Source: Octopus vulgaris (lineage: Eukaryota). Taken from it: DNA of 64,000 bases. Position numbers and translations under genes: made by a program. Positions within the stretch are counted from its first letter, which is position 1. The number at the start of each line of letters is the position of its first letter. This document shows, piece by piece, positions 874-51,464 of the stretch. Below the pieces are notes generated by a model that was given only the letters and a program-made list of their open reading frames with translations, was not told the origin of the DNA and made no database searches. The stretch covers positions 35,898,001 to 35,962,000 of the forward strand of contig OX597816.1 of NCBI GenBank assembly GCA_951406725.2, written 5' to 3'.

Positions 874-1123
874 TATAAAATATTATTAGAGAAAAACACT
901 ATTGCAAAACAAACAAGGAAAGACTTAATCAATACATAAAATTTTAATAAATAGTCAAAAAATTTGAAACTGACTTATTGAAGTCCACCTGAAGATTGTC
1001 GATCAAGACAAGAAACGATTGTAGTGGCGGTTTTTTGACTATTTATTAAAATTTTATGTATTGATTAAGTCTTTCCTTGTTTGTTTTGCAAAATAGTGGT
1101 TTTGTCTCTAATAATATTTTATA
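874..1123. repeat. Imperfect inverted repeat (arms 874-962 / 1031-1123) enclosing a hammerhead; PLE-tail-like mini palindrome between (TA)n tracts
   Basis: tataaaatattattagag...atagtcaaaaaa is the reverse complement of ttttttgactat...ctctaataatattttata with a few mismatches; (TA)n lies upstream (to ~797) and directly downstream (1121+). Confidence 0.9.
985..1027 (+). ncRNA. Minimal type I hammerhead ribozyme
   Basis: ccac-CTGAAGA-ttgtc(gatcaa)gacaa-GAAAC-gatt-GTA-gtgg: stem I ccac/gtgg, stem II ttgtc/gacaa, intact core, GUA cleavage triplet at 1021-1023. Confidence 0.85.
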
Positions 1124-1968
1124 TATATATATATATATATATATATATACTTAAGTGCATGCATATGTATGCCAATATTCTGTAAACGTCGGAATAAATG
1201 ACTGAACTTATTCTACACACACACACACACACATACACTAAAACACACACATGCACAAGCATACACCTCAACGTCGATGCAATGTATATATATATACTTA
1301 CATGCCAATATTCTGTAAACGTCGGAATAAATGACTGAATTGAAATGTTTATAAATTCTTCATAAGTTGTCACTTTATTACACATTTACATCTTTAACTC
1401 TGACAGGTTTGGGATTCGTTCTTAAACTAGTTCCATGGTAATATTGATATGCCTATTTGTTTGTTACAATACAATTGGAGATATGATTATATATAGCGTA
1501 AATTATTATACTATTTTTCATAATGATTGAGTCTAAACAGATGCAGAAATATCCATATCTGTCACTAAGAAATATGTGTAAATATTCCGATGTATTTATT
1601 GTCTAACAGACAGTGAGCCATTCGTTAAAACTTTGTTTAAATGACTATCCTTTCTCGATAGCTCATGAGAGGAAACCGTTTTGCAAATTCCATACGTGTA
1701 TTGTTCAAGTAATAAGAGAGATGTGCACCACCAGGAACGACTAAAGTGTACATGAGAAGACCAACAAAAAATATCAACTAATAGCAAAAGCTAAAGGTGA
1801 TGATCAATTTACATATTAGTATATATTGTTTGCAAAATATTCCTATTCCCAAGTATTCATATATATGTTCGTGTGTGTGTGTGTGTGTGTGTGTGTGTGT
1901 GTGTGTGTGTGTGTGTGTGTGTGTGTGTGTGTGTGTGTGTGTGTGTGTGTGTGTGTGTGTGTGTGTAA

Positions 1969-2383
1969 AAGGTGGCGAGCTGGCAGAAACGTTAGCGCGC
2001 CGGGCGAAAAGCTAGCGGTATTTCGTCTGCCGCTACGTTCAGAGTTCAAGTTCTGTCGAGGTCGACTTTGCCTTTCATCCTTTCGGGGTCGATAAATTAA
2101 ATACCAGTTGCGCACTGGGATCAATATAATCGTCTTAATCCGTCTGTCTGTCCTCGTTTGTTCCTTCTGTGTTTAGCCCCTTGTGGGTAGTAATGAAATA
2201 GGTATTTCGTCTATTGTTACGTTCTGAGTTCAAATTCCGCCGAGGTCGACTTTGCCTTTCATCCATTCGGGGTCGATAAATAAAGTACCAGTTTCGCACT
2301 GGGATCGATGTAATCGACTTAATCCCTTCGTCTGTTTTTGTTCGTCCCCTCTATGTTTAGCCCCTTGTGGGTAGTAAAGAAAT
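1969..2383 (+). mobile_element. tRNA-derived SINE (Octopus-type, Meta/MESC-like central domain) with duplicated 3' half
   Basis: Head ggtggcgagctggcagaa, B-box-like gagttcaa, body gactttgcctttcatcctttcggggtcgataaa; 2200-2383 repeats ~2018-2200; other copies at ~4615-4825(-), 5057-5265(+), 27905-28135(+), 37725-37900(-). Confidence 0.8.
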
Positions 2384-2419
2384 ATATATATGTGTGTGTG
2401 TGTGTATGTTTGTGTGTGT

Positions 2420-2900
2420 GGAGGTAGTTAGGGCAGCAGACTCGCGGTCGTAAGATCGCGGTTTCGATTCCCTGACCGGGCATTGTGAACATTTATTGAG
2501 TGAAAGCACCTAAAACTCCACAAGGCTCCGGCAGCGGGGTGGTGGTGAATTCTGCTGTACTATTTCACCACAGCTTTCTGTCACTCTTTCCTCCTGGTTC
2601 TGTTGTACCTGTATTTCAAAGGGCCAGCCTTGTCACACTTCGTGTCACGCTGAATCTCTTCGAGAACTATGTTAAGGGTACACGTGTCTGTGGAGTGCTC
2701 AGCCCCTGCACGTTATTAAATGAGTACCAAGCTGTATCAGTCTTTGTCCTTCCCTGGGATAACATCGGTGGCGTGGAGAGTGGAAGCTGGCATGTGTGGG
2801 CGACTGCTGGTCCTCTATAAACAAACTTGCCCAGACTTATGCCTCGGAGGGTAACTTTCTAGGTGCAATCACATGGTCATTCATGACCGAAGGGGGTCAC
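2420..2900 (+). mobile_element. Second tRNA-derived SINE family
   Basis: tRNA-like head gtagttagggcagcagactcgcggtcgtaagatcgcggtttcgattcc (A/B boxes), followed by a unique body, flanked by (TG)/(TA) repeats. Confidence 0.6.
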
Positions 2901-3045
2901 ACAATATATATGTGTATACATATTTATTTATATATATATATGTGTGTGTATGCATGCGAGTGTGTGTGTGTGTATGTGTGTGTATGCGTGCGAGTGTGTG
3001 TGTGTGTGTGTGTGTGTGTGTGTGTGTGTGTGTGTGTATGTGTAG

Positions 3046-48400: not shown

Positions 48401-49823
48401 AACAGAATCCAGTTGCAATGAACTGCCAATACTGGATATCTATATAAATATACAGAACTCCACAGTCACAACAGATATATTTTCACAAAAATACTGGCAC
48501 ACATCAATATTTAAATTTCTACTCTGGCCATCTATCACACATCAAAAGAAATATTCCATACATCATGGCAAGGTATATCTGTGCTATAGTAGCTGACCCC
48601 AAAATACGTGAAATCCGACTCAACGAACTCATAGGTTTCTTCACAATGCAGAAATACCAATTAGGATTAATTAATGAGGGAATTAAAAAGGCGATGAAAC
48701 TGAACATCACCAAACTACGGACACCTAAGGAAAAAGTAAATGAAAACACGATTCCGTTCATTAACACATACACTCCTGGAATAACCATAACATCGAACTT
48801 ATACTCCTACAGAAAACATATACTCCTGCAAAACTCCAAAAAGAAACTCTGGTTGAAAAAAACACCTTACAGAATAGCAGACGCCAACCCAAAAATCTTT
48901 AAAAAAACACCTCACAAGGACAGAATTCAAATCAGAGAATGCATCAGATAGGACATGTGGAATATGCAACAATATCAACAACTGCAAATACTTGGAAAGT
49001 GGTTCCCACCTAAAATTCAAGAGTGATCCCTTTTCAAAATAAATGCAGATATGAATTGCGAAATGCAAAACCTCAAAAACTGCATTAATTGCTCAAACTG
49101 AAAAGAAAATTACATTGGTGAAACAAATAACTCCTTCTGCCAATGTGCAAGTATCCACAGGCAACGTATCCGACAAGAAGAATTACGCAAGATTCCATGA
49201 TTATGCATCTGGAAATATGCGACGACGGAAAACTCAAAATTTTTCACTTTTACAAATGTGCACGGGACGATCCGCAATACCAAAAAATTATGGAACAATA
49301 TTTCATAAAAAAATTATCTCCAAAGCTGAATGTTTGAAAGAAAAGCAAAGACTACATTTTGTTAGTATAATTATACTAATGTTCTCTAACGCAAAATTGA
49401 AAGAGGCGTGGAATTGAAAGAGGCCTAATCAAAGTAACACATTATAAAGAAGGACATATTCCCAACCACACACACGCACACACACACACACAAGCACACA
49501 TACATACACATACACAGAAACATGCACACACGCGCCTGTGCGCACACACATACATACACTTCATCAAGGAATCCTCCCGAAAACGGAATGTTTGATGGTA
49601 AGGTGGAGAATTTGAATACTTTATTCCAAACGTTGCTCATCTCTACAAATGTTCGGGCATATCTGTGTTGCACTGGGATGTTCTAGCTTTACGTACACAC
49701 ACACACACACAAACACACACACACAGACACACACACACACACACCTGAGCGCATAATAATAATAATACTGTAATTGTTCCACGTGTTGTTGTTTTTTTCT
49801 GTTTTCCCGTTTGGATTAACCTT
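45480..49823 (+). mobile_element. Near full-length degenerate Neptune-like PLE (RT + GIY-YIG)
   Basis: ILKEAENGG, SFDVTNLYTNIPH, YRQKKG, WKRFLDDCF, LHPSIKF...ELPILDI, NYIGET; riddled with stops; PLE tail at ~49743-49823 before (TA)n. Confidence 0.85.
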
Positions 49824-50355
49824 ATATATATATATATATATATATATATATATATATATATATATATATATGTATATATACATATGTATATATTCATTTA
49901 ATTTAATTTACTGATTGATTTTTCAAATTGTTAATTTACAAATATCATACTAATACATTTTCATGCACAACTACACTTTATCAAAAATGTCCCTCTAAAA
50001 ATGAATATTTGGAAGGGATATATACTAAATATAACTCATACAGGTGAAAAAGAAAGAAAGTAGGAAAAAGGAAGGAAAAAATAGAGGGATAGAAAGAAAG
50101 TAAAAAGAAAGTAAAAAACACTTGCTTTTTATTTTTATTTATTTTTTAGAAGAGGTCATCGTCCTTTGACTTATTCCAATACAATGGTAAAAGGAAAAAT
50201 TAATTAATAGAATAAATGGTGAAGAGAAAGGTGGATACTCCTATCTATCTTACCCTCTACTGCTCTGTCTATCTGTTTGACTATCTATCCAAATTTCTAT
50301 CTATACAGATATCTATCTATCTATATATCTATATATCTATCTATCATCCTACCTA

Positions 50356-50733
50356 CCTACCTATATTCTTATGTATCCATCTCCATTGTCTTGGAATGTC
50401 ACCCCAGAAAACAAAAACAATATTCTCTCCTATGCAAAACCCCCAAAAATCATCTGTTTTATATAAATGAAAAAGCTATTTGCACATTCAAAAATTGTAT
50501 TTGACATGTTCTAAAGAAGAACGAGAGTGCTAATAATAATATAGAAGTAAAAGGTTCTTCTCAAAAATTCTGACTTCTTTCTCAATATTCAATCCTGCAC
50601 ATCACACCTAGCACGATATATATATATATATAGGAAAAACGGCAAATACTTGGAAAAATGTTCCCACATAAAATTCAAGAGTGATCCCTTTTCAAAATAA
50701 ATGCAGATATGAACTGCGAAATGCAAAACCTCA
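50356..50733 (+). repeat. Fragments of a related PLE copy
   Basis: 50356-50610 is similar to 45476-45737; 50643-50733 is nearly identical to 48984-49074. Confidence 0.75.
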
Positions 50734-50925
50734 ATATATATATATATATATATATATATATATATATATATATATATATATATATATACATATATATATA
50801 TAATATAAATATATATATATATATACATATATATATATGTGTGTGTGTATAATATATATATATATATATGGGAAAACGTCAAGGTAAAAATGAAAAATGT
50901 TAAAATAATTTTATTAAAAGCATTT

Positions 50926-50961
50926 CAGTACCGTTTTCAGTGATTGAGACTTTTTCAACTG
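50926..50961 (-). ncRNA. Hammerhead-like motif with U3:A8 compensatory core
   Basis: Reverse complement cag-TTGAAAA-agt(ctcaatc)act-GAAA-acg-GTA-ctg; stem III has one mismatch. Confidence 0.55.
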
Positions 50962-51464
50962 TAAATATGGAAAACAATCACATTTTTGAAAAATTATATA
51001 AACAGACTTTTTCTAAAGATTATTAGCATTGTATTCAAATACAAGGGGCATTTTGCTTGCTTCTGCCTGTTTATCTCTCCCTTGTTTACTCTTGTGGCTT
51101 CGACGTCGTAGTGAATTCTTGGCAGAGAATAATAATAATAATAATAATAATAATAATAATAATAAGAAGAAGAAGAAGAAGAAGAAGAAGAAGAAGAAGA
51201 AGAAGGAGGAGGAGGAGGAGAAGAAGAAGAAGAAGAAGAAGAAGAAGAAGAAGAAGAAGAAGAAGAAGAAGAAGAAGAAGAAGAATTATTATTCACAACG
51301 ACCTTGAACCCACAAGAGTAAACAAGAGCGACAGAGACAGACAGAAACAAGGAAAATGCCCCTTGTATTTGAATACTATGCAAATATTCTTTTAAAAGCA
51401 CTTTTCATTTAATTTTTTCAAAATTTAATAGTTTTCCATACTTACAGTTGAAAAAGCCTCAATC
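50943..51464. repeat. Imperfect tail-out inverted repeat around (AAT)n(GAA)n
   Basis: Arms ~50943-51120 / 51280-51464, e.g. gtattcaaatacaaggggcatttt / aaaatgccccttgtatttgaatac; the right arm ends within the mirror HHR (cagttgaaaaagcctcaatc). Confidence 0.85.

What the first reader, a model, noticed from the sequence alone, without database searches (positions are those of the whole stretch)
874..51464. Recurrent tail-out palindromes of hammerhead-bearing Penelope-like elements in (TA)n: a possible dual-priming, RNA-dimer insertion system
Seen in sequence: at least five, possibly six, sequence-unrelated loci share one geometry (874-1123, 5783-6206, 15050-19220, 34650-37236, 50943-51464, and 44159-44389 more weakly). 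The left arm is in minus orientation and the right arm in plus, with element 3' tails pointing outward, (TA)n on both flanks at most loci, and HHRs on the arms or in the spacer. The arms end at different tail positions, and at 874-1123 the inverted arm extends further than the arm that is continuous with the spacer. Established: PLEs carry minimal type I HHRs with palindromic loop III thought to cleave as dimers, and inverted PLE structures are known. Inference: (TA)n is self-complementary, so both ends of a GIY-YIG break could prime reverse transcription on two RNAs, perhaps held together by the HHR dimer, with the two cDNAs joined at a microhomology. This would explain overlapping inverted arms, which L1-style twin priming does not produce, across several PLE families.
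Basis: partly seen in the sequence, partly recalled or inferred. Interest (0 to 1): 0.85.

Follow-up and report, generated by a model that had tools for sequence, protein, structure and literature searches.

The report
One-tailed head-to-head Penelope insertions
These palindromes are the known head-to-head insertions of Penelope-like jumping genes in TA repeats, and almost every pair carries the element's short tail on one arm only, which suggests that both ends of the cut DNA likely start copying at two different sites on the same RNA.

Summary
The palindromes are real. They are Penelope-like element (PLE) insertions from five families, not six: 44159 is a relative of 34650. Head-to-head arms, a one-sided tail and (TA)n targets are all published.

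New here is the genome-wide count. Of 95 head-to-head pairs in three families, 92 have the tail on exactly one arm, 3 on neither and 0 on both. The tailed arm is the 5'-shorter one in 27 pairs and the longer in 19. Several pairs do not overlap at all, which a simple fold-back cannot produce. The two arms share one source haplotype.

Dual priming is therefore supported. The symmetric two-RNA, hammerhead-dimer idea is disfavoured: independent start-site choice is rejected (P about 1e-15), and families with non-canonical hammerhead cores still make pairs.

Best reading (inferred): twin priming at two fixed start sites on one RNA by a dimeric RT/endonuclease. A Neptune-type family rarely makes pairs (1 of 21). 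The scan noted the one-arm tail before in another genome (e1-9915070). No long reads were available.

The parts
794..962 (-). Family A inverted arm, 5'-shorter, carrying the ~80-nt tail (794-~870); (TA)n outside
   Evidence: L084, reference positions 87-260
961..1123 (+). Family A tail-less arm with the family's usual 5' end; (TA)n outside
985..1027 (+). Type I hammerhead with canonical core CTGAAGA...GAAA and wobble-palindromic loop III; predicted cut after 1023
   Evidence: activity untested
5711..5966 (-). Family B (Hydra-like PLE) inverted arm with 69-nt tail (5711-5779)
5961..6209 (+). Family B tail-less arm; the 56-nt spacer is family sequence continuous with this arm
6094..6171 (+). Hammerhead with canonical core, long stem II and palindromic CATATG; mirror copy at 5818-5895 on minus
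   Evidence: read from the sequence; core conserved in the family
15050..15553 (-). Family C inverted internal 3'-UTR piece, identical to 17392-17895; no tail, no hammerhead
15554..19222 (+). 5'-truncated Neptune-like PLE: end of ORF with Zn-finger linker and GIY-YIG (15565-16248), long 3' UTR, tail-less end
   Evidence: (PF01541 E 0.002, below gathering score)
19146..19182 (+). Minimal hammerhead-like motif with non-canonical core CCGACGA
34597..35963 (-). Family D arm, 5'-longer, with ~55-nt tail (34597-34649) and GIY-YIG ORF end
35963..37236 (+). Family D tail-less arm; hammerhead-like motif 37073-37112 with core CTGATGC
   Evidence: (PF01541 E 0.00055, below gathering score)
44159..44449 (.). 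Locus F: decayed D-related pair; short tail-less left arm, tailed right arm 44328-44449
50872..51464 (.). Locus E: old pair (83%); tail-less left arm, right arm ending early; family has a ~30-nt optional tail; no ORF found, so PLE membership rests on structure only

Best explanation
These are ordinary Penelope-like element insertions, likely made by twin priming in which the two ends of a cut (TA)n tract start reverse transcription at two different fixed sites on one element RNA. Shown: head-to-head arms, two preferred 3' end points per family, exactly one tailed arm, one source haplotype per pair, (TA)n flanks. From published in vitro work on a Poseidon PLE: both strands are cut and extended, RT starts at two adjacent internal sites that bound the tail, and the protein is a predicted dimer. 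Inferred: each protomer takes one DNA end and one site; both copy towards the RNA 5' end; the trailing enzyme usually displaces the leading cDNA (overlapping arms) and sometimes stalls at or before it (tail-only or abutting arms); the two cDNA 3' ends join through 0-4 nt of microhomology or a few added bases and are filled in. Loss of one cDNA would leave the solo copies, with or without tail.
For: One-tail rule: A 43 of 44, B 21 of 22 plus 15 of 15, D 13 of 14; 0 of 95 with both tails. In samples drawn without the tail in the query, 62 of 65 against 32 expected, P 1e-15. In tail-drawn samples, 30 of 30, P 1e-5. Tailed arm 5'-shorter in 27, longer in 19, equal in 46. Non-overlapping arms: A L108, L116, L118; B L037 and L237, where the arms abut with an 11-nt gap as in L1 twin priming; D L080. 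Same template: the partner arm is the nearest haplotype in 5 of 6 long-armed B pairs. Concordance at recurrent variants is 5 of 7 in A and 16 of 24 in D, against shuffled means of 0.03 and 0.14; 0 of 2000 shuffles reached it. 5'-end classes of the two A arms correlate (16 of 19 pairs, Fisher P 0.005). Head-to-head joints of the same kind, including tail-only ones, occur in contigs of public runs. PMC11167929.
Against: It needs long strand displacement (up to kilobases) by a PLE RT, which is not shown. Two RNAs from the same source locus would also share a haplotype. In B, 0 of 9 informative cells in the short arm region were concordant; most lie near junctions, but one variant (position 4979) is one-sided at two loci. 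One family A pair is discordant at a CpG variant (L090). Family C shows an inverted arm in only 1 of 21 other copies; in that one (L179) both arms include the tail, though they end 143 nt apart. Three pairs have no tail. Samples are the best 40 hits per search, so young copies are favoured. Later deletions at palindrome centres could mimic short tailed arms.
Confidence: 0.55

Rival explanations
1. One cDNA folds back (or the RNA self-primes, as proposed for an antisense template) and copies itself. The element's endonuclease or RT stops or trims the copy at the proximal site, and later deletions at the palindrome centre shorten either arm.
For: Explains identical haplotypes and the one-tail rule. 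Window locus D and 19 pairs with the tail on the longer arm fit directly. Self-priming and endonuclease-mediated resolution are the published suggestions (PMC3846280 Discussion; PMC8557442). L215 carries the same odd internal deletion unit on both arms.
Against: Without later deletion it cannot give the 27 pairs with the tail on the shorter arm, or tail-only arms. In six A pairs (L084, L097, L107, L108, L116, L118) the tail-less arm keeps its native 5' end while the tailed arm lacks 55-205 nt, which needs strictly one-sided deletions. L237 (abutting, non-overlapping arms) and L080 are twin-priming patterns.
Confidence: 0.22
2. One reading: two RNAs from the same source locus, possibly paired through hammerhead loop III, are held in an asymmetric complex that forces one RT to the distal and one to the proximal site.
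For: Needs no strand displacement. Loop III stays self-complementary in A (CGATTG 92, CAATTG 5) and B (CATATG 107). The A motif co-folds at -23.4 kcal/mol against 2 x -7.5 as monomers. Dimer activity of such ribozymes is proposed in PMC4209133. A few one-sided variants exist.
Against: A symmetric dimer gives no reason for 0 of 95 two-tailed pairs. No pair mixes subfamilies at high-frequency diagnostic sites. Arms usually span an uncut ribozyme. D and E have non-canonical cores yet pair, while C seldom pairs. Naiads without canonical hammerheads form inverted units, and hammerhead mutants insert normally in vitro.
Confidence: 0.18
3. The palindromes are assembly or fold-back read artefacts.
For: No contig of the four runs laid bridges the window's own junction, and no long reads were available.
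Against: An artefact cannot add family tail sequence that is absent from the other arm. Arms carry independent substitutions (3 of 187 at B, 27 of 176 at E). Junctions differ from locus to locus. Similar joints occur in contigs of public runs.
Confidence: 0.02

Closest known systems
Insertion units of endonuclease-bearing PLEs (Penelope/Poseidon, Neptune, Hydra, Naiad): pLTR, inverted 5'-truncated copy, one-sided tail (PMC3846280; PMC8557442)
   Same: Head-to-head arms as the commonest arrangement, tail often at one end only, (TA)n targets, hammerheads in the pLTR
   Different: Tails here are 52-85 nt rather than 30-40. The one-arm tail is shown to be almost without exception (92 of 95, none with both) and independent of arm length; the passages read give it only as 'often' or 'optionally'.
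Poseidon PAc of Anolis in vitro (PMC11167929)
   Same: Two adjacent internal RT start sites bounding the tail; both strands cut and extended; predicted protein dimer
   Different: That paper does not explain inverted pairs or assign one site to each DNA end. It reports no homology between target and start site, whereas families B, C and E have short TA patches at one or both sites.
L1 twin priming (as described in 10.1101/2024.08.27.596794)
   Same: Both nicks prime on one RNA; tail-out inversion; cDNA ends joined by microcomplementarity; gaps or overlaps at the junction
   Different: The L1 second site is random and internal, and overlaps are short (median 22 bp). Here the second site is fixed 50-85 nt from the first, and overlap of hundreds of bases to kilobases is the rule.
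Non-LTR retrozymes (10.64898/2026.07.22.740005; PMC4209133)
   Same: Short hammerhead-bearing non-coding units related to PLE pLTRs (family A)
   Different: Family A occurs as head-to-head pairs or solos, not as head-to-tail arrays.

Membership tests
Endonuclease-bearing PLE | RT plus C-terminal GIY-YIG in one ORF | tested here: met
   Family B (L047) and C (L202, L205) show RT motifs and a GIY-YIG end, read by eye. Pfam GIY-YIG hits for C and D are below the gathering score. No ORF was found for A or E.
Endonuclease-bearing PLE | pLTR with optional tail that is the start of the next unit | tested here: met
   Tail runs on into the next unit in B (L218) and C (L208, L179); two end points also in A, D, E
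Endonuclease-bearing PLE | Hammerhead motif in the pLTR | tested here: inconclusive
   Canonical core in A and B; altered core in C, D, E; no Rfam hit; cleavage untested
Endonuclease-bearing PLE | Placement in the PLE RT phylogeny | not tested
   No reference PLE proteins were fetched
Hydra clade (family B) | DKT motif, CxCX5C linker, no CCHH, canonical hammerhead, (TA)n target | tested here: met
   L047 frame read by eye against section 11 of PMC8557442; (TA)n on both sides in 21 of 22 pairs
Hydra clade (family B) | N-terminal RWK motif; clade placement by tree | not tested
   N-terminus not aligned; no tree built
Neptune clade (family C) | DKG motif, CX2-5CxxC linker, CCHH in the endonuclease | tested here: met
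   Read by eye in L202 and L205; no tree, so Nematis is not excluded
L1-type twin priming (works like, not a member) | Second priming at an internal, non-fixed site with small gap or overlap | tested here: not met
   Most second arms end at the fixed proximal site and overlap widely; a minority fit (L237, L212, L080, window locus C)
Non-LTR retrozyme (family A) | Head-to-tail tandem arrays of hammerhead units | tested here: not met
   Of 63 unique A loci, 44 are head-to-head and 19 solo; one (L150) also has a tandem piece
Non-LTR retrozyme (family A) | Circular RNA | not testable with these tools
   No RNA reads were laid

The most novel reading that the evidence does not exclude
Obligate, programmed twin priming is the normal PLE integration route. 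One RNA threads through a dimeric RT/endonuclease, the tail is the RNA spacer between the two active sites, and each end of a double-strand cut is extended from its own fixed site. The hammerhead sets a second class of 5' end in vivo: 12 of 14 internal 5' ends of family A tailed arms lie 0-25 nt past the predicted cut.
Probability: 0.4. Interest if true: 0.75.

Novelty: new member of a known kind. Interest (0 to 1): 0.5.

Why it matters
How PLEs, the sister group of telomerase, make their inverted repeats and one-sided tail is described as unresolved in PMC8557442 and PMC11167929. The near-absolute one-tail rule, its independence from arm length, the non-overlapping cases and the shared haplotype turn that question into one experiment in the existing in vitro system: pair the top- and bottom-strand start sites on single target molecules, using two marked RNAs. 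It would also explain why such genomes are full of short palindromes in (TA)n that confuse assembly and repeat annotation.

Tried and rejected
Rfam gave no hammerhead, only microsatellite-driven microRNA matches. Monomer folds of the motifs were not significant (z from -1.4 to +1.2).

Two own-genome searches returned nothing because common words are skipped: the D tail and the A proximal part. So D has no tail-drawn sample, and the A 5'-end clustering could not be tested on a second sample. That clustering uses a window chosen after seeing the data and overlaps a T7 run. It could reflect ribozyme cleavage, RT stalling at the ribozyme stem, or microhomology. It is weak in B.

The stretch C1:57.29-57.32 Mb looked like a full-length tandem but is a segmental repeat holding one solo copy per unit. 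The junction microhomology script is reliable only for family A; in B and D, copy variants inflate the 'insertions'. Automatic de-duplication failed for B, so those loci were listed by hand.

The idea that one arm comes from the 5' pLTR and the other from the 3' pLTR of a single mRNA was rejected: tailed arms run kilobases into the 3' UTR and ORF (L011, L034, L035, L047).

The public runs are contigs only. None bridged the window junction, no RNA holder was listed, and no clean empty allele was seen. No structure or complex prediction was run.
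Full report
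OBSERVATION. All six inverted pairs exist and exceed chance: 9 local inverted repeats against 0-1 in each of 10 shuffled windows. I call them A (794-1123), B (5711-6209), C (15050-19222), D (34597-37236), E (50872-51464) and F (44159-44449). F is a decayed relative of D, so there are five families. C's left arm is an internal CA-rich piece. E lacks (TA)n on the right and F on the left. The genome is 2.8 Gb in 227 contigs; its SINEs look octopus-like, which is recalled and was not tested.

WHAT THEY ARE. [quoted passage not shown] These are the Hydra-clade marks (PMC8557442). Family C shows DKG, CX2-5CxxC and CCHH, Neptune-like. C and D give GIY-YIG Pfam hits below the gathering score. A is a ~170-nt non-coding hammerhead unit; no ORF was found for A or E. 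Each family has two preferred 3' ends, proximal and distal, separated by a tail of about 80 (A), 69 (B), 52 (C), 55 (D) and 30 nt (E). In tandem copies of B and C the tail runs on into the next unit, as expected for a PLE tail. Hammerhead cores are canonical in A and B, and altered in C (CCGACGA, 30 of 30), D (CTGATGC, 26 of 33) and E.

GENOME-WIDE TALLY. Each search scored only the best 40 of 140-1671 candidates, so young copies dominate. The window's own loci are included in the counts. Unique loci and head-to-head pairs: A core query 29 of 39, A tail query 15 of 24, B core query 22 of 36, B tail query 15 of 24, D 14 of 29 (D and the B tail query were seen only within 1.5 kb). Tail-to-tail pairs: 3 against 80 head-to-head. 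(TA)4 lies on both outer ends in 75 of 80. Tails per pair: one in 92 of 95, none in 3 (L101, L009, L061), both in 0. For the 65 pairs drawn without the tail in the query, independent choice predicts 18 none, 32 one, 15 both; observed 3, 62, 0 (P 1e-15). For the 30 tail-drawn pairs, the chance of no two-tailed pair is 1e-5.

EXCEPTIONS. Family C has no inverted arm in any of 20 extended loci; this sample was biased to tailed ends. One further C locus, L179, has both arms through the tail, ending 143 nt apart. Among older E copies, L242 and L243 have one tail and L247 none.

FOLD-BACK TEST. The tailed arm is 5'-shorter in 27 pairs, longer in 19 and equal within 15 nt in 46. In A L108, L116 and L118 and B L037 the inverted arm is tail only. 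In B L237 the two arms abut with an 11-nt gap. D L080 has a far-upstream inverted piece ending at (TA)n. A copy of the first cDNA cannot give these unless one-sided deletions occurred later. Junctions in A are mostly 0-4 nt overlaps or small insertions; 17 of 42 scored overlap by 2 nt or more against about 21% for random joins, partly because of the palindromic 5' end.

ONE TEMPLATE OR TWO. In B, where the 3' UTR varies between copies (median 4-39 differences), the partner arm is the nearest haplotype in 5 of 6 long-armed pairs; the sixth is a near tie over 137 nt. Recurrent variants are shared in 5 of 7 informative cells in A and 16 of 24 in D, and no shuffle of 2000 reached that. In D, all discordances are at rare variants. 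Against this: 0 of 9 in the short B region, mostly near junctions but including one variant one-sided at two loci, and one CpG site in A. So pairs come from one source lineage; one RNA and two RNAs from one locus are not separated by this test alone. The one-tail rule favours one RNA, because two primers cannot use the same site at once.

A LEAD. Tailed arms of A start either near positions 1-35 or just past the predicted hammerhead cut: 12 of the 14 ends between positions 40 and 170 fall within 79-103 (post hoc window, P 1e-7). Partner arms share the class in 16 of 19 pairs (P 0.005). A T7 run or stalling at the ribozyme stem could also cause this.

ARTEFACT CHECK. Contigs of public runs show head-to-head joints of family B, including tail-only ones (5740 to 5966 and 5776 to 6078 in run X2), but none bridges the window's own junction. 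One of these runs may be the assembly's own source. No long reads were available.

MECHANISM. Shown: geometry, two end points, one tail, shared haplotype. Published for a Poseidon PLE in vitro: cleavage and extension of both strands, two adjacent internal starts that define the tail, a predicted dimer, and no need for hammerhead cleavage (PMC11167929). Inferred: each end of the cut (TA)n is extended from its own site on one RNA, with strand displacement, and the cDNA ends are joined (0.55). Rivals: fold-back with resolution and later centre deletion (0.22); an asymmetric two-RNA complex, with or without hammerhead pairing (0.18); artefact (0.02).

COMPARISON WITH PRINT. Head-to-head is called the most frequent arrangement, with an optional tail on one inverted pLTR and antisense self-priming proposed (PMC3846280; passages and Discussion read). 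A tail often at one end only, (TA)n targeting and endonuclease-mediated resolution are in PMC8557442 (passages and section 11). Dimeric hammerheads are in PMC4209133 (passages). Of PMC11167929 I read the abstract, main text and start of methods. Passages only: 10.64898/2026.07.22.740005, 10.1101/2024.08.27.596794, 10.1101/2024.12.14.628481, PMC13282606. Seven searches found no paper that counts tails per pair or proposes twin priming for PLEs. The library lacks most subscription papers; the 2004-2006 PLE papers cited in these works and all supplements (notably Fig. S2 of PMC11167929) were not seen and may bear on this. The scan noted the same one-arm tail in another genome (e1-9915070), after my reading was recorded; it is an unchecked note, not independent proof.

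VERDICT. A real and known kind of insertion, with a strong quantitative constraint on an open mechanism. Dual priming is supported; the RNA-dimer part is disfavoured. Interest 0.5.

Noticed in passing
L215 1092-1850 (G000:C4:23.559 Mb): Family B insertion in which both arms hold two tandem copies of a 238-nt unit joining the ORF start back to the ribozyme region by microhomology. It looks like a retrozyme in the making, and is still one-tailed at the outer ends.
   Followed up: partly
family D (window 37076) and family C (window 19153): Young, multi-copy families fix non-canonical hammerhead cores (CTGATGC; CCGACGA). They may be inactive or natural variants.
   Followed up: partly
L105, L094/L095, L242: Different PLE families insert into each other's (TA)n flanks, building nested clusters.
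   Followed up: no
window 59668-60658: About 1-kb element with 197-nt terminal inverted repeats (88%), not flanked by (TA)n on the left; likely a MITE or DNA transposon remnant.
   Followed up: no
window 10636-11166: About 390-nt insert between two (TA)n tracts with a central 72-nt hairpin (10889-10960); unclassified.
   Followed up: no
window 47500-49830 (+), 30072-30165 (+), 4049-4510 (+), 39051-39524 (-): Further decayed PLE pieces: an RT region with a family-C-like tail at 49745-49822, a solo tailed D fragment, and two endonuclease-end fragments that look Hydra-like by eye.
   Followed up: partly
window 21692-23866 (+) and 25480-27441 (-): Two non-PLE LINE RT frames; the first matches Pfam RVT_1 (E 3e-32).
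   Followed up: no
family B distal end (L014, L023, L037, L043, L214, L231): Some tailed arms extend 10-15 nt past the usual distal end, so the distal start site has a second position.
   Followed up: no
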